Below, piece after piece: positions 48,794-51,261 of a DNA stretch of 64,000 nucleotides. Location of the stretch: the NCBI GenBank assembly GCA_030638415.1, contig DAOWEO010000008.1, positions 47 to 64,046 of the forward strand, written 5' to 3'. Under the pieces are notes generated by a model. It saw only the letters and a list, made by a program, of their open reading frames with translations, made no database searches and was not told the DNA's origin. A program made the translations under genes and the position numbers. The stretch's first letter is position 1, and the number at the start of each line of letters is the position of its first letter. The DNA comes from Bdellovibrionales bacterium (GTDB lineage Bacteria; Bdellovibrionota; Bacteriovoracia; Bacteriovoracales; Bacteriovoracaceae).

Positions 48794-49696
48794 GTGAACA
48801 TTGATAATAGTACTCTTTTTACCTTAAAAAAAGAGCTGCTAAACCAATCCTATAGTCATAGTACTTTCTTATATTCTAGATGTTTTTATATTCATGGTGT
48901 TGAACTTACTGTCTGTTGCAATGCTGAATATACGTTAGATAAAATTGTGTCTTGGGTAGGAGAGGTACCTTCAAAGAGTCACCATAAAATTACTGTTTAT
49001 CTCTTCACACCTGAAGAATTAGATATATCTACTAAGGATTGGTGTGATGAAAGTTCACAAGATTGTTGGAGCGATACTAAAGATGGATTGCGTTATGGTA
49101 TTCAAAGAGATTTTGCAGCGAGGGAGCTAACTCCCGATTGTTTTTATGCAGTCTTGGGCTTAGAATACTCTGATGGACTGTATAACTTTTTACGCTGGTT
49201 ACTTCCTTCCTATCTTTTAGAGTCACAACAAGCAATTATTCATAGTGCCTGTGTATTATCTAATAAAAAAGAAGCGCTATTTTTTTTAGGATATTCAGGT
49301 GCAGGAAAGACAACAATCACATCATTAGCAGGAGCTAGAGATATTTTGGGTGATGATATGAATAGACTCTTTATAAGTGATAATGTTGTGTCCGCTGGTC
49401 CCGGGGGAGTGGGTGGTGCATTTGAACCGTCAGTACCTATTGATAGTAGCTTTCCTGTTAAAGCTTTTTTTTGGTTGAAACAATCTAATCGAAATCAGGT
49501 CGTAACGATTAGTAAGACAGCTGCTTTTCAACGTCTATTCTCATCTTTTGTAGGATGGTCATGGGAGAATGTTGATCATGAATTACAGCAGAAAATGATG
49601 AGTTTTATTGATGAAGTCTTAAGAGATACCCCTATGTATGAGTTAGAGTTTACTAAAGAGGTAGATGCTTGGAAAAAAATAGAGGAAGTGCTATGA
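48794..49696 (+). CDS. HprK-related kinase-like protein
   Basis: HSACVLSNKKEALFFLGYSGAGKTTITSLAGARDILGDDMNRL parallels the HPr kinase/phosphorylase C-terminal domain (GxSGxGKS/T ... L(V/I)xDD). GTG start with no SD of its own. Confidence 0.7.
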   Translation: MNIDNSTLFTLKKELLNQSYSHSTFLYSRCFYIHGVELTVCCNAEYTLDKIVSWVGEVPSKSHHKITVYLFTPEELDISTKDWCDESSQDCWSDTKDGLRYGIQRDFAARELTPDCFYAVLGLEYSDGLYNFLRWLLPSYLLESQQAIIHSACVLSNKKEALFFLGYSGAGKTTITSLAGARDILGDDMNRLFISDNVVSAGPGGVGGAFEPSVPIDSSFPVKAFFWLKQSNRNQVVTISKTAAFQRLFSSFVGWSWENVDHELQQKMMSFIDEVLRDTPMYELEFTKEVDAWKKIEEVL

Positions 49697-49953
49697 GTTA
49701 TATTCGCAATAATGAATTTGTCTGGAAAAAAATTGGTGGTGAATCTTTTATTTTAGATGTTGCAAATGAAAAATCACACTCCTTGAATGAAAGTGCAACA
49801 TGGATTTGGTGTTTTTTAGATGTGGAAAAAGAATTTGATGATATTGTAACTGAATTTCTAGTTAAGTTTGATGCTCCAGTGGAAATTGCCACTAAAGATA
49901 TTCAAAACATACTAATGGATTTAAACAATCTAAATCTTGTTATTAAACAGTGA
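49693..49953 (+). CDS. PqqD-family protein (RiPP recognition element), copy 1
   Basis: 86 aa; WKKIGGESFILD....SLNESATWIWCFLD..EFDDIVTEFLVKF........DIQNILMDLNNLNLV. ATGA overlap with the kinase stop; AGAGGAAG lies upstream. Confidence 0.7.
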   Translation: MSYIRNNEFVWKKIGGESFILDVANEKSHSLNESATWIWCFLDVEKEFDDIVTEFLVKFDAPVEIATKDIQNILMDLNNLNLVIKQ

Positions 49954-50396
49954 GTTTACAGTTACCATATTCTGGAAAAAGTATGTCTCCCTATCTCGAA
50001 GATGGGGATATCTTAAGTGTTTTTGAAACAAATGATAATTTTGGGCCAGGTGATTTACTGCTATACAAAAATAGTCTTGATAGTGAACTGATCGTGCATC
50101 GCTGCTTGTATGCAGGAATTTGTCCAACGGTGAAAGGAGATAGAAATCTTGAAATGGATGACTTTTCGGTAGATCTGTTGATTGGTCGTGTTAGCAGTGT
50201 TTTTAGAAAAGGCAGAAACGTTTCCTACATAAATAACATCTTCTGTAATCGTTTTTTGTCACTCTGCTCAACAAATTCATGCAGTGAACATGGAAAAGTA
50301 TGTCGCTATCTACATCAAGCAACTTTAATGGTGGTTATTTTTTTGAGAAAAACGATACTATCCATAGTATATCGTATTTCAGTGATGCAACGATAG
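49950..50396 (+). CDS. ER/archaeal-type (SipW/Sec11-like, S26B) signal peptidase homologue lacking an N-terminal anchor
   Basis: SGKSMSPYLEDGDIL (Ser11), ELIVHRC (His50) and TVKGDRNLEMDD match the Sec11/SipW boxes (SGSMxP..GD, IVHR, KGDNN..D). GTGA overlap with PqqD-1. Confidence 0.6.
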   Translation: MSLQLPYSGKSMSPYLEDGDILSVFETNDNFGPGDLLLYKNSLDSELIVHRCLYAGICPTVKGDRNLEMDDFSVDLLIGRVSSVFRKGRNVSYINNIFCNRFLSLCSTNSCSEHGKVCRYLHQATLMVVIFLRKTILSIVYRISVMQR

Positions 50397-51261
50397 AATC
50401 TTTGGTTAGGTGTTTCAAAATAAAGTAGCGCCAGCCACCTTGCTTTCCACTAAGCAGGAGTTCTCTATTAATAATTAGTTTCCAAAGATGTTTTTTTCTA
50501 AGATTAAAAGTAGATTGCATTTCTGTTGTCAAAGAGTAGTTGAAATATTTTTTCATAATCCATAGAACTTGGAGTACTGATTGTTTTAGTTTTAAGACTT
50601 TTGATAAATCAGAGATTTGCTGCCAATCCAATTGATCATGGTATTTCTCCATGATGTAATAAAGATCTAGTAGCCAGTATGCTTTAAGAAAATTATGTTG
50701 AAATGCGAGATGACCACATAGATGCACAAATAGATAATTAAGTGAGAGCTGCAAATATCCATCAATATAGCTGGGCTCTATTTGACGATAGTCATCTTGT
50801 AAATGGTAAAAAAGATGGGTATGACATTCAATAACAATTTGCGTATGGCATGTACTTTTACCAAATGTCTTTTTGTTTAAATTTCCAAACCATTTTTTTT
50901 CTTGTAGAACTTCATATCCATCACTTAGTAAAATTTCTGTTAGTTGAGTTAGTTCTTCAACGGTGAGTAGTAGATCTATATCTGAAAGAAATCGACTACC
51001 ATAATCAGTATAGATGCGATTAAGTAGATCCATTCCCTTTAACAGTACTGGAGAGATCTTTCGTTGTTTGAGCTTAGGGGAGAGCCTTTTTAATTCACTT
51101 ATTTTAATTTCGTTATGAATCCACTGCTTCTTCCACTCTTGGTTATCAGCCATGATATGAGTTTGATGTGCTAAGCCTTCTAGATGGTGAGATTGCAAAA
51201 AAATATCAAATTGTTTTGAGTTATTGGATTTAATGAATTGATTTGGCCATTCGAGCTTCAT
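50335..51261 (-). CDS. Nucleotidyltransferase-family protein (NTP_transf_5-like)
   Basis: LLKGMDLLNRIYTDYGSRFLSDIDLLL fits the LKG...Y.d.g.R...DiDlLv pattern of the uncharacterised nucleotidyltransferase family. Confidence 0.6.
   Translation of the reverse strand: MKLEWPNQFIKSNNSKQFDIFLQSHHLEGLAHQTHIMADNQEWKKQWIHNEIKISELKRLSPKLKQRKISPVLLKGMDLLNRIYTDYGSRFLSDIDLLLTVEELTQLTEILLSDGYEVLQEKKWFGNLNKKTFGKSTCHTQIVIECHTHLFYHLQDDYRQIEPSYIDGYLQLSLNYLFVHLCGHLAFQHNFLKAYWLLDLYYIMEKYHDQLDWQQISDLSKVLKLKQSVLQVLWIMKKYFNYSLTTEMQSTFNLRKKHLWKLIINRELLLSGKQGGWRYFILKHLTKDSIVASLKYDILWIVSFFSKK

What the first reader, a model, noticed from the sequence alone, without database searches (positions are those of the whole stretch)
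48794..51261. Kinase plus nucleotidyltransferase pair without a lasso cyclase
Seen in sequence: an HprK-like kinase (48794-49696) and an NTP_transf_5-like protein with LSDIDLLL (50335-51261, opposite strand) lie within 1.6 kb of a peptide ending in ...KINS. Established knowledge: in the paeninodin and pseudomycoidin lasso clusters, the homologous kinase phosphorylates the C-terminal Ser, and the nucleotidyltransferase-family partner further decorates that phosphoserine. Inference: the same two-step C-terminal Ser chemistry may have been transplanted onto a non-lasso (rSAM-modified) scaffold. This would extend that tailoring module beyond lasso peptides.
Basis: partly seen in the sequence, partly recalled or inferred. 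Interest (0 to 1): 0.6.

Follow-up and report, generated by a model that had tools for sequence, protein, structure and literature searches.

The report
Phosphopeptide-type RiPP cluster with radical SAM
The kinase and nucleotidyltransferase belong to a conserved gene cluster of predatory bacteria. It joins the recently described "linear polyphosphorylated peptide" (LPP) machinery to a radical-SAM enzyme, acting on a small peptide that always ends in serine.

Summary
Window 48794-49696 encodes a P-loop kinase-like protein, and 50335-51261 (minus strand) encodes an NTP_transf_5 protein. Both sit beside a 57-aa peptide ending in KINS. No lasso cyclase or B2 peptidase is detected anywhere in the genome.

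The "HprK-like" label needs refining. The protein does not match Hpr_kinase_C. It belongs to Pfam ScmC, the family of LppK, the Ser kinase of the LPP family (Popov et al. 2026, Bacillota). A profile comparison with an LppK orthologue gives probability 99.8%, E 1e-27, over nearly the full length.

The gene order precursor-kinase-RRE-peptidase copies lppA-K-B-S.

So the module has already been shown to work outside lasso peptides. What is new is an obligate radical SAM/SPASM partner, a home in Bdellovibrionota, and a conserved core. In 44 loci with at least four common gene orders:
- kinase and rSAM are present in 44 of 44;
- NTase in 41 and peptidase in 42;
- all 41 distinct precursors carry two invariant Cys and a C-terminal Ser.

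Phosphorylation of that Ser is inferred, not shown. I rate this a new variant of a known kind, of moderate-to-good interest.

The parts
48579..48587 (+). TGGTATAAT, an extended -10-like element in the 47-bp gap between the divergent ABC ATPase gene and the precursor gene
   Evidence: Read directly from the sequence. The consensus scan did not list it because no -35 element was found. This is a sequence-level suggestion only.
48618..48791 (+). Precursor peptide, 57 aa. Predicted leader is M1-A33, with Y18-x-x-P21-x-I23 and F31-G-A33. Predicted core is L34-S57, with Cys35, Cys50, G41-G-R-K44 and the C-terminal Ser57.
   Evidence: The ORF is intact and has an SD. Homologues were found by tblastn in 41 loci. 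All 41 distinct sequences end in Ser, with Y, P, E, L, A(-1), CNG, G.RK, the second Cys and L(-3) conserved in at least 90%. The leader aligns column for column with LPP leaders.
48794..49696 (+). ScmC-family (PF27840) P-loop kinase-like protein, a homologue of LppK. Invariant residues are H150, G166-x-S-G-x-G-K-T174 and D187-D188.
   Evidence: Pfam ScmC; invariant residues; PEPCK/HprK fold; model pLDDT 93; weak hits to ScmC, HprK_rel_A and HprK_rel_B; LppK homology.
49693..49953 (+). PqqD-family RiPP recognition element no. 1. An ATG at 49693 overlaps the kinase stop. The longest ORF starts at 49669.
   Evidence: Pfam PqqD 7.7e-11. Weak similarity to LppB, E 3e-4. Only 5 of the 44 loci show this two-PqqD gene order.
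49950..50396 (+). ER/archaeal-type (SipW-like) signal peptidase I homologue and predicted leader peptidase. It has Ser11, His50-Arg51 and Gly63-Asp64, and no N-terminal anchor.
   Evidence: NCBIfam TIGR02228 sigpep_I_arch 1e-5. 31% identity to an LPP-cluster SpI, E 2e-9. S11, H50, R51, G63 and D64 are invariant in 42 of 42 homologues. Fusions with the kinase exist: P0028, and the 418-aa proteins of L048 and L049.
50335..51261 (-). NTP_transf_5 nucleotidyltransferase-fold protein, of the LppN/PsmN type. It has D94-x-D96 within LSDIDLL. Its 3' end overlaps that of the peptidase gene by 62 nt (convergent).
   Evidence: Pfam 1e-27. Residues invariant with LppN and the lasso NTase: LKG74-76, R90, D94, D96, E145, H147, H184, H189 and D199. 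BLASTP to LppN 3e-7. Model pLDDT 93, with Foldseek hits to MenT1 and ANT(2'')-Ia.
51279..51554 (+). PqqD-family RRE no. 2, with overlapping start and stop codons linking it to the rSAM gene
   Evidence: Pfam PqqD 9.1e-14. A PqqD gene directly upstream of the rSAM gene is the rule across the loci.
51544..52581 (+). Radical SAM/SPASM peptide maturase, with the C35-x3-C39-x2-C42 motif
   Evidence: Pfam Radical_SAM 5e-19 and SPASM 5e-10. It falls below the cut-off of every named NCBIfam maturase. The nearest solved structures are PqqE, MoaA, SkfB and SuiB. It is present in 44 of 44 loci. C35, C39, C42, C247, C265 and C313 are conserved.
47935..48570 (-). ABC transporter ATPase, divergent from the precursor gene; predicted exporter subunit
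   Evidence: Pfam ABC_tran 3.8e-24. It lies next to the cassette in 23 of the 44 loci examined.
47136..47945 (-). ABC-2-type permease, partner of the ATPase
   Evidence: Weak Pfam ABC2_membrane hit, 2.4e-5. It co-occurs with the ATPase across loci.

Best explanation
Window 47136-52581 is one RiPP-type biosynthetic cluster. It joins an LPP-like phosphopeptide pathway to a radical SAM/SPASM maturase.

Proposed course (inferred unless marked otherwise):
1. The 57-aa precursor is bound through its Y18-x-x-P21-x-I23 leader by a PqqD recognition element.
2. The ScmC-family kinase, an LppK homologue, uses ATP to phosphorylate a Ser of the precursor, possibly several times. The best candidate is the invariant C-terminal Ser57, as in paeninodin and pseudomycoidin.
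3. The NTP_transf_5 enzyme further decorates that phosphate. In pseudomycoidin the equivalent step adds a hexose.
4. The rSAM/SPASM enzyme, working with its own PqqD, modifies the core. Most plausibly it forms cross-links at the two invariant Cys (Cys35, Cys50).
5. The SipW-like Ser/His peptidase removes the leader after Ala33 (...SFGA|LCNG...). This is the position that aligns with the proven LPP cleavage site.
6. The ABC-2 pair exports the 24-residue product.

Shown here: the homologies, the conserved catalytic residues, the conserved co-occurrence of the genes, and the invariant precursor residues.

Inferred: every chemical step, their order, and the phosphorylation site.
For: **Family links to proven enzymes**
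- LppK orthologues carry Pfam ScmC alone, as the window protein does. Lasso kinases carry Hpr_kinase_C plus a weak ScmC hit.
- In Popov's own tables the 'HprK kinase' class consists of hits to TIGR04249 (ScmC), TIGR04352 and TIGR04355. The window family hits the same three models weakly.
- The window kinase against an LppK orthologue gives 24% identity over 233 aa, E 2e-17. hhalign gives probability 99.8%, E 1e-27, over 248 columns.
- Popov et al. showed that LppK polyphosphorylates a Ser, that LppS cleaves the leader in an RRE-dependent way, and that the unphosphorylated precursor is processed poorly.

**Catalytic residues**
- The kinase keeps H150, the P-loop and D187-D188 as invariant. The DD pair corresponds to the D158/D159 pair that is essential in PsmK.
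- The NTase DxD is invariant. The equivalent D134/D136 pair is essential in PsmN.
- The peptidase keeps Ser, His-Arg and Gly-Asp in 42 of 42 homologues.

**Architecture and conservation**
- The order precursor-kinase-RRE-peptidase equals lppA-K-B-S.
- The leader aligns with LPP leaders, with [FY][GA]A lying under FET.
- Across 44 loci, the kinase is present in 44, rSAM in 44, PqqD in 42, peptidase in 42 and NTase in 41, in at least four common gene orders.
- Kinase-peptidase and kinase-PqqD fusions exist.
- The family occurs in 54 of 401 genomes of the phylum and 35 of 204 genera.
- All 41 distinct precursors end in Ser, while the penultimate residue varies among 8 amino acids. Both Cys are invariant.
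- Two kinase+rSAM cassettes from other phyla also have candidate precursors ending in Gly-Ser.
Against: - No biochemical or transcript evidence could be obtained.
- The closest characterised kinase, LppK, phosphorylates core Ser3, not a C-terminal Ser. Here core position 3 is an invariant Asn. Position 5 is Ser or Thr in only about 29 of 41 precursors. Site transfer from either model is therefore uncertain.
- Similarity to the lasso kinases that do target a C-terminal Ser is confined to the P-loop half.
- LppN had no detectable activity in the heterologous host, so the NTase chemistry is known only from PsmN genetics.
- The kinase-like fold is closer to ATP-PEPCK than to HprK/P: Foldseek 3e-8 against 3e-5.
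- The core is unusually conserved for an antimicrobial RiPP. This hints at a different kind of product, such as a signal or a cofactor.
- The rSAM substrate and reaction are unknown. It keeps fewer conserved Cys than a canonical SPASM domain.
Confidence: 0.65

Rival explanations
1. The pathway is the same, but the kinase acts near the leader-core junction as LppK does. It would phosphorylate, for example, Thr38 (core +5) or Ser30 and so license leader cleavage. The invariant C-terminal Ser would then be conserved for another reason, such as rSAM chemistry, exporter recognition or target recognition.
For: - The window kinase is a full-length homologue of LppK, whose proven site is core Ser3. 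It matches the C-terminal-Ser lasso kinases only in the P-loop half.
- In LPP, phosphorylation gates cleavage by the SpI-like peptidase. Kinase-peptidase fusions exist in this family.
- Core +5 is Ser or Thr in most precursors.
Against: - No hydroxyl residue near the junction is invariant. Core +3 is always Asn, and +5 is N, A, V, M, I or K in about 12 of 41 precursors.
- The only invariant Ser or Thr in the core is the C-terminal Ser.
- LppK did not accept Thr at its site.
Confidence: 0.2
2. The ScmC-family protein and the NTP_transf_5 protein do not make a phospho-(glyco)serine here. Instead they carry out a different ATP/NTP-dependent step on the peptide. One possibility is activation of the C-terminal carboxylate or a side chain, by phosphorylation or nucleotidylation, for a later condensation or for the rSAM reaction. 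The product would then be a small conserved cofactor- or signal-like molecule rather than a decorated peptide.
For: - The fold and profile are closer to PEPCK, a carboxylate/enolate phosphotransfer enzyme, than to HprK/P.
- The best full-length NCBIfam similarities of the rSAM include the cofactor maturases MftC and PqqE.
- The core is strongly conserved across 35 genera, unlike the variable LPP cores.
- The NTase chemistry is unproven even in LPP.
Against: - The only experimentally characterised members of this kinase family group (LppK, PadeK, PsmK) are Ser kinases.
- An ABC exporter and a leader peptidase point to a secreted peptide.
- The NTase shares its invariant active-site residues with LppN and the lasso NTases.
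Confidence: 0.1
3. The kinase/NTase pair and the rSAM/PqqD pair are two adjacent but independent systems, and their proximity in this window is incidental.
For: - The window has two PqqD genes, one next to each half.
- LPP clusters work without an rSAM.
- Kinase+peptidase loci without an rSAM exist in Clostridia and Anaerolineales.
Against: - The rSAM is present in 44 of 44 loci that hold this kinase subfamily, through several gene orders. Most loci have only one PqqD and only one precursor.
- Only one precursor-like ORF is found per locus, and it carries both the invariant Cys pair and the invariant Ser.
Confidence: 0.05

Closest known systems
Linear polyphosphorylated peptide (LPP) clusters of Bacillota (Popov et al., Nat Commun 2026, PMC13381572): lppA-K-B-S-D-N
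   Same: - The precursor has a YxxPx[VI] leader with an aromatic residue at -3 of the cleavage site.
- The kinase is in the ScmC Pfam family.
- There is a discrete PqqD RRE, a SipW-like Ser/His signal-peptidase homologue that serves as leader peptidase, and an NTP_transf_5 protein.
- The gene order A-K-B-S is the same.
- There is no lasso cyclase.
- One related locus (L003) sits among glycosyltransferase genes, as LPP clusters do.
   Different: - An obligate radical SAM/SPASM maturase is present, in some loci with a second RRE.
- The exporter is an ABC-2 two-gene type rather than MsbA-like.
- The core is short and highly conserved, with two Cys and a C-terminal Ser. LPP cores are variable.
- There is no Ser at core +3.
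- The phylum is Bdellovibrionota, whereas the paper states that LPPs are restricted to Bacillota.
- The kinase is only 24% identical to LppK and has GDD where LppK has SDE.
Phosphorylated lasso peptides: paeninodin (PadeK) and pseudomycoidin (PsmK, PsmN) (Zyubko et al. 2019, PMC6993621)
   Same: - The precursor ends in Ser.
- A P-loop kinase of the same superfamily is present, with the DD metal-binding motif.
- An NTP_transf_5-type partner is present, with the DxD motif.
- The leader is of the [Y/W]xxPxL type and is read by a PqqD RRE.
   Different: - There is no macrolactam cyclase and no B2 Cys peptidase.
- Lasso kinases match Hpr_kinase_C; the window protein does not, and it aligns with them only over the P-loop half.
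- Leader removal is by a Ser peptidase.
- An rSAM enzyme is present.
SynChlorMet (SCM) cassette of TIGRFAMs/NCBIfam (ScmC, ScmD, ScmE, ScmF), a bioinformatic definition only
   Same: A ScmC-type P-loop protein is associated with a PqqD homologue and a radical SAM/SPASM enzyme.
   Different: - All window proteins fall far below the SCM equivalog cut-offs. ScmC scores 23 bits against 125; ScmF 92 against 400.
- There is one rSAM, not two.
- The window cluster adds a signal-peptidase homologue, an NTP_transf_5 protein and an identifiable precursor.

Membership tests
LPP (linear polyphosphorylated peptide) clusters | Precursor leader with [Y/W]xxPx[V/I/L] and a conserved aromatic residue at -3 of the cleavage site (FET|) | tested here: met
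   Y18-I-K-P21-E-I23 and F31-G-A33 are present. The leader aligns column for column with five LPP leaders. The motif is conserved in 41 precursors.
LPP (linear polyphosphorylated peptide) clusters | LppK-type ('HprK-like', Pfam ScmC) kinase | tested here: met
   Both the window protein and the LppK orthologues carry Pfam ScmC. hhalign gives probability 99.8%, E 1e-27. Kinase activity itself was not tested.
LPP (linear polyphosphorylated peptide) clusters | Discrete PqqD-type RRE | tested here: met
   Two PqqD genes are present, at E 7.7e-11 and 9.1e-14.
LPP (linear polyphosphorylated peptide) clusters | Archaeal/ER-type signal peptidase I (SipW-like) as leader peptidase | tested here: met
   TIGR02228 at 1e-5; this is the same model that defines SpI in Popov's tables. 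31% identity to an LPP SpI. Ser and His are invariant.
LPP (linear polyphosphorylated peptide) clusters | NTP_transf_5 'NTP transferase' | tested here: met
   Pfam 1e-27. It is homologous to LppN, E 3e-7, and shares its invariant residues.
LPP (linear polyphosphorylated peptide) clusters | Conserved Ser at core +3 (FETxxS), the phosphorylation site | tested here: not met
   Core +3 is an invariant Asn (CNG) in all 41 precursors.
LPP (linear polyphosphorylated peptide) clusters | MsbA-like fused ABC exporter, and no other class-defining maturase (linear product) | tested here: not met
   The exporter is a separate ABC ATPase plus ABC-2 permease. A radical SAM/SPASM enzyme is present in 44 of 44 loci.
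LPP (linear polyphosphorylated peptide) clusters | Polyphosphorylated intermediate demonstrated | not testable with these tools
   This requires expression and mass spectrometry.
Paeninodin-type phosphorylated lasso peptides | Asn-synthetase-like macrolactam cyclase and Transglut_core3 (B2) peptidase | tested here: not met
   The 92%-complete genome has no Transglut_core3 hit. It has no Asn_synthase hit above the cut-off. Neither is present near the cluster.
Paeninodin-type phosphorylated lasso peptides | Hpr_kinase_C-type kinase | tested here: not met
   None of the 51 family members hits PF07475. The four lasso kinases fetched all carry it. Homology is limited to 147 columns.
Paeninodin-type phosphorylated lasso peptides | Precursor with a C-terminal Ser | tested here: met
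   41 of 41 precursors end in Ser. The lasso precursor in L082 also ends in Ser.
SynChlorMet cassette (TIGR04248-04251) | Proteins reach the ScmC, ScmD, ScmE and ScmF equivalog cut-offs, with two rSAM/SPASM genes | tested here: not met
   ScmC scores 23.4 bits against a cut-off of 125, ScmD 29 against 100, and ScmF 92 against 400. There is a single rSAM.
Bona fide HPr kinase/phosphorylase | Hpr_kinase_C domain | tested here: not met
   There is no PF07475 hit. None was found in the window's genome or in 10 relatives. HprK/P ranks only 47th by fold.
ATP-dependent PEP carboxykinase | Full-length PEPCK_ATP domain of about 530 aa, above the cut-off | tested here: not met
   Only about 55 residues around the P-loop match, at 22 bits against a cut-off of 26.5. 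The genome has a real PEPCK on another contig, at 713 bits.

The most novel reading that the evidence does not exclude
This would be an undescribed RiPP class, largely confined to Bdellovibrionota (about 13% of sampled genomes of the phylum). In it, a C-terminal phospho- or glycosylphospho-serine and rSAM-made cross-links at two invariant Cys sit on one 24-residue peptide. The core is almost invariant across more than 30 genera. That suggests a conserved physiological role in these mostly predatory bacteria, such as a signal, an envelope component or a cofactor-like molecule, rather than a variable antibiotic. The wider kinase+rSAM cassettes of the SCM type in other phyla would then use the same C-terminal-Ser logic.
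Probability: 0.35. Interest if true: 0.7.

Novelty: new variant of a known kind. Interest (0 to 1): 0.55.

Why it matters
The LPP pathway was described only in 2026. It was said to be restricted to Bacillota, its final product is unknown and its NTP_transf_5 enzyme was inactive in the test host.

This cluster shows the same five-part machinery in a different phylum, locked to a radical SAM enzyme. Its precursor core is short and nearly invariant, which gives three clear candidate sites: Cys35, Cys50 and Ser57.

That makes it a tractable system for three questions:
- what NTP_transf_5 does to a phosphoserine;
- whether ScmC-family kinases choose junction-proximal or C-terminal serines;
- what the 'SCM-type' kinase+rSAM cassettes produce, which have been annotated for years without a precursor or a product.

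It also points to a conserved secreted peptide in predatory bacteria.

Tried and rejected
- **Bona fide HprK/P.** Rejected. The window protein and its homologues have no Hpr_kinase_C hit, and there is none in the genome or its relatives.
- **Housekeeping PEPCK.** Rejected. Only the P-loop region matches, and a real PEPCK is encoded elsewhere.
- **True SCM cassette.** Rejected on the equivalog cut-offs. The distant kinase+rSAM loci L010 and L011 also fail those cut-offs.
- **Cryptic lasso peptide** (Gly32..Glu39 ring). Rejected. The Glu is not conserved in homologues and there is no cyclase.
- **MNT/antitoxin-type NTase.** The top Foldseek hit is the MenT1 toxin, but only at TM 0.41. The profile finds no PDB sequence. 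Sequence membership is NTP_transf_5, together with LppN.
- **Kinase and NTase phylogenies.** With five LPP and four lasso representatives, deep branches are unresolved for the kinase. The trees show separate clades but cannot give a direction of transfer.
- **The genome-contig scan.** It was swamped by the P-loop pattern and returned only 6 loci. The genome search was used instead.
- **PDB search with the first PqqD.** It found nothing.
- **Literature searches.** Searches for ScmC/SynChlorMet and for a Bdellovibrionota RiPP of this kind found no description.
- **Promoter and terminator scan.** It was no better than shuffled sequence.

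
Full report
**Observation**

The region holds a compact gene set:

| Coordinates | Strand | Product |
|---|---|---|
| 47136-47945 | - | ABC-2 permease |
| 47935-48570 | - | ABC ATPase |
| 48618-48791 | + | 57-aa peptide MSDTEIDKKENIDQKKEYIKPEIKSEDLVSFGALCNGTEIGGRKAAVPVCNTRKINS |
| 48794-49696 | + | 300-aa P-loop protein (GYSGAGKTT, LGDDMN) |
| 49693-49953 | + | PqqD (longest ORF from 49669) |
| 49950-50396 | + | 148-aa S24/S26-like protein |
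| 50335-51261 | - | NTP_transf_5, E 1e-27, with LSDIDLLL |
| 51279-51554 | + | second PqqD |
| 51544-52581 | + | radical SAM/SPASM enzyme |

The peptide gene has a strong SD and a TGGTATAAT extended -10-like element in the 47-bp divergent gap.

No lasso cyclase or B2 peptidase lies nearby. In the 92%-complete genome, Transglut_core3 gives no hit. Asn_synthase gives only one sub-threshold hit on another contig.

**What the 'HprK-like kinase' is**

Neither the window protein nor any of 51 homologues matches Pfam Hpr_kinase_C. All match the P-loop core of ATP-PEPCK weakly. Many also match NCBIfam models weakly: HprK_rel_A (38 of 51), ScmC (26 of 51) and HprK_rel_B (16 of 51).

The precomputed Pfam family is PF27840, named ScmC. 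A profile of the family hits the PEPCK nucleotide site in the PDB at about 1e-6 and finds no HprK/P.

An AlphaFold model (pLDDT 93) matches PEPCK best by Foldseek (3e-8). HprK/P appears at rank 47 (3e-5).

Invariant residues are H150, G166-x-S-G-x-G-K-T174 and D187-D188. The DD pair corresponds to the D158/D159 pair whose mutation inactivates PsmK.

The genome has a genuine PEPCK elsewhere. No bona fide HprK is found in the genome or in 10 relatives. 'HprK-like' is therefore right only at superfamily level. The protein is neither HprK/P nor PEPCK.

**The decisive link: the LPP family**

Popov et al. (Nat Commun 2026, PMC13381572) described 'linear polyphosphorylated peptides' (LPPs) in Bacillota. 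Their core gene set is:
- a precursor with a YxxPxVLxHQxIxFETxxS leader;
- an 'HprK-like' kinase, LppK;
- a discrete RRE, LppB;
- a SipW-like archaeal-type signal peptidase, LppS;
- an MsbA-type exporter;
- an NTP_transf_5 protein, LppN.

The order is A-K-B-S-D-N, and about two thirds of the clusters have no lasso cyclase nearby.

Their experiments showed four things:
- LppK polyphosphorylates core Ser3.
- LppS removes the leader and needs the RRE to present the precursor.
- The unphosphorylated precursor is processed poorly.
- Deleting lppN had no visible effect in the heterologous host.

Their supplementary tables show that the 'HprK kinase' class consists of hits to TIGR04249 (ScmC, 67), TIGR04352 (65), TIGR04355 (11) and TIGR00679 (8). 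NTP transferase equals NTP_transf_5, and SpI equals TIGR02228. These are the same models that the window proteins hit.

I fetched the lpp locus of Paenibacillus frigoriresistens (L082) for direct comparison. Its LppS is 97% identical to the studied P. alginolyticus enzyme, and its LppA matches in 70 of 72 residues. I also fetched four more LPP or LPP-plus-lasso loci.

In all five loci LppK carries Pfam ScmC alone. The four adjacent lasso kinases carry Hpr_kinase_C plus a weak ScmC hit.

| Comparison | Result |
|---|---|
| Window kinase vs LppK, BLASTP | 24% identity over 233 aa, E 2e-17 |
| Family profile vs LppK, hhalign | probability 99.8%, E 1e-27, 248 columns |
| Window kinase vs lasso kinase, BLASTP | P-loop region only, E 0.003 |
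| Family profile vs lasso kinase, hhalign | probability 96%, 147 columns |
| Window NTase vs LppN | 24% identity over 197 aa, E 3e-7 |
| Window NTase vs lasso NTase | 27% identity over 62 aa, E 1e-6 |

The NTase shares with both relatives the invariant residues LKG, R90, D94-x-D96, E145, H147, H184, H189 and D199. The DxD pair corresponds to the pair that is essential in PsmN.

The NTase model (pLDDT 93) is a Pol-beta-type nucleotidyltransferase fold. Its nearest solved structures are MenT1, a putative H. pylori NTase and ANT(2'')-Ia. The last is the same template family that was reported for PsmN.

The 148-aa protein is a homologue of LppS. It hits sigpep_I_arch at 1e-5. It is 31% identical to an LPP-cluster SpI, E 2e-9.

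Its motifs are GKSM (Ser11), HR (His50) and KGD. S11, H50, R51, G63 and D64 are invariant in 42 of 42 family members.

The leaders of the window family align column for column with LPP leaders. [FY][GA]A lies under FET, so the proven LPP cleavage site maps to Ala33|Leu34. This predicts a 24-residue core, LCNGTEIGGRKAAVPVCNTRKINS.

**Conservation**

The kinase family occurs in 54 of 401 sampled genomes of the phylum (35 of 204 genera). Source names of homologues point to Bacteriovoracaceae, Bdellovibrionaceae and Oligoflexia. It has 153 representative clusters at E<1e-30 among 1.84 billion proteins.

I examined 44 loci with iterated HMMs:

| Gene | Loci with it (of 44) |
|---|---|
| Kinase | 44 |
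| rSAM | 44 |
| PqqD | 42 (5 loci show the two-PqqD gene order) |
| Peptidase | 42 |
| NTase | 41 |

At least four common gene orders occur, with further minor ones. The kinase is fused to the peptidase in L048 and L049 (418 aa) and in P0028. It is fused to PqqD in P0010.

The precursor is itself a conserved family. The 41 distinct sequences give the consensus kk.Y.kP.i.sE.L..fgA.CNG...GgRKas...p..C.a.kL.S. All 41 end in Ser, while the penultimate residue takes 8 different identities. Both Cys are invariant.

This pattern cannot be chance. It marks Ser57, Cys35 and Cys50 as functional sites.

**Mechanism**

The best-supported reading is an LPP-like pathway fused to an rSAM maturase:
1. The RRE captures the YxxPxI leader.
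2. The ScmC-family kinase phosphorylates a Ser.
3. NTP_transf_5 decorates the phosphate.
4. The rSAM/SPASM enzyme modifies the core, probably at the Cys pair. Its nearest solved relatives are PqqE, SkfB and SuiB, and it reaches no named family cut-off.
5. The SipW-like peptidase cleaves after Ala33.
6. The ABC-2 pair exports the product.

The homologies and the conservation are shown. Every chemical step is inferred.

The phosphorylation site is the weakest point. The nearest characterised kinase, LppK, targets core Ser3. Here core +3 is an invariant Asn, and the only invariant hydroxyl residue in the core is the C-terminal Ser. That matches the site used by the more distant lasso kinases.

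Two kinase+rSAM cassettes from other phyla (L010 and L011, order PqqD-rSAM-peptide-kinase) have candidate precursors with YxxPx[LI] leaders, several Cys and a C-terminal Gly-Ser. This weakly supports a link between rSAM-associated ScmC-type kinases and a C-terminal Ser.

**Phylogeny**

In quick maximum-likelihood trees, LppK (5 rows) and the lasso kinases (4 rows) are each monophyletic (100). Both lie apart from the Bdellovibrionota rows, and the deep branches are unresolved.

The NTases fall into three groups: Bdellovibrionota (support 94), LppN (100) and lasso NTases (99).

The kinase does not cluster with bona fide HprK/P. The NTase is not in an unrelated sequence family. Equally, nothing shows a recent 'transplant' from lasso clusters.

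**Novelty**

A kinase plus NTP_transf_5 working outside a lasso scaffold is already published (LPP, May 2026). That paper states that LPPs are restricted to Bacillota. Its supplementary table lists one Bdellovibrionales SpI with two RREs but does not analyse it.

I found no paper describing the combination with an obligate rSAM/SPASM enzyme, the conserved Cys/Ser core, the ABC-2 exporter and the spread through Bdellovibrionota. The ScmC-PqqD-rSAM association exists only as the bioinformatic 'SynChlorMet cassette', whose cut-offs this cluster does not reach.

I classify it as a new variant of a known kind.

**Limits**

- The genome is a draft of 174 contigs, 92% complete.
- The trees use few outgroup sequences.

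Noticed in passing
L010:4929-7492 and L011:4697-7543: Minimal four-gene cassettes, PqqD - rSAM/SPASM - small peptide - ScmC/HprK_rel_B-like kinase, occur in a Deltaproteobacteria MAG and a Ca. Acidoferrum MAG. Their candidate precursors (...KYVKPCLSKIQ...CESCGTPGS and ...KPYEAPQIVRV...SLFCRTLGS) have YxxPx[LI] leaders, several Cys and a C-terminal Gly-Ser. They have no NTase or signal-peptidase homologue, and they fall below the SCM cut-offs.
   Followed up: partly
L009:7001-12623: An Anaerolineales MAG has a ScmC-like kinase, an SpI-like peptidase and a PqqD without an rSAM. A peptide ...KPYIKPAIVQELDLEARAGS... lies there too. This looks like an LPP-type cluster outside Bacillota.
   Followed up: no
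L001:351-7838, L002:1-5097, L005:1-7967: In three related loci the cassette lies directly downstream of a giant (2500-3300 aa) secreted Peptidase_C25 (gingipain-like) protein. This is not the case in the window.
   Followed up: no
L003:2935-6253 and 11554-12750: One related cassette is embedded among glycosyltransferase genes (GT4, Glycos_transf_4). This echoes the capsule-locus setting reported for LPP clusters in Bacilli.
   Followed up: no
L048 and L049 (418-aa ORF); P0028, P0130, P0144, P0156; P0010: Natural fusions exist of the ScmC-like kinase with the signal-peptidase-like domain (about 420 aa) and with PqqD (386 aa). Popov's Supplementary Data 1 also lists a Chondromyces apiculatus kinase-RRE fusion next to an SpI.
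   Followed up: partly
window 51544-52581: Across 45 homologues the rSAM keeps C35, C39 and C42 but only three further conserved Cys (C247, C265, C313). That is fewer than the seven of a canonical SPASM domain, so it may hold a reduced set of auxiliary clusters.
   Followed up: partly
window 50335-50396 and 51262-51278: The NTase gene is inverted inside the otherwise co-directional cassette. Its 3' end overlaps the peptidase gene by 62 nt, and its start is only 17 bp from the divergent PqqD-2 start. The promoters for both must therefore lie inside coding sequence. The inverted NTase is the commonest arrangement across loci.
   Followed up: no
window 46294-47055: A response-regulator receiver fused to a cyclic-nucleotide-binding domain lies directly beside the exporter genes. 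It is a possible regulator of the cluster, but it was not seen beside the cassette in the other loci whose called genes I read.
   Followed up: no
G235:C1:2463701-2464624 (L027, L055): In one complete-looking genome (single 3.3-Mb contig) the kinase homologue has an in-frame TGA. This could be a pseudogene, a sequencing error or a recoding event.
   Followed up: no
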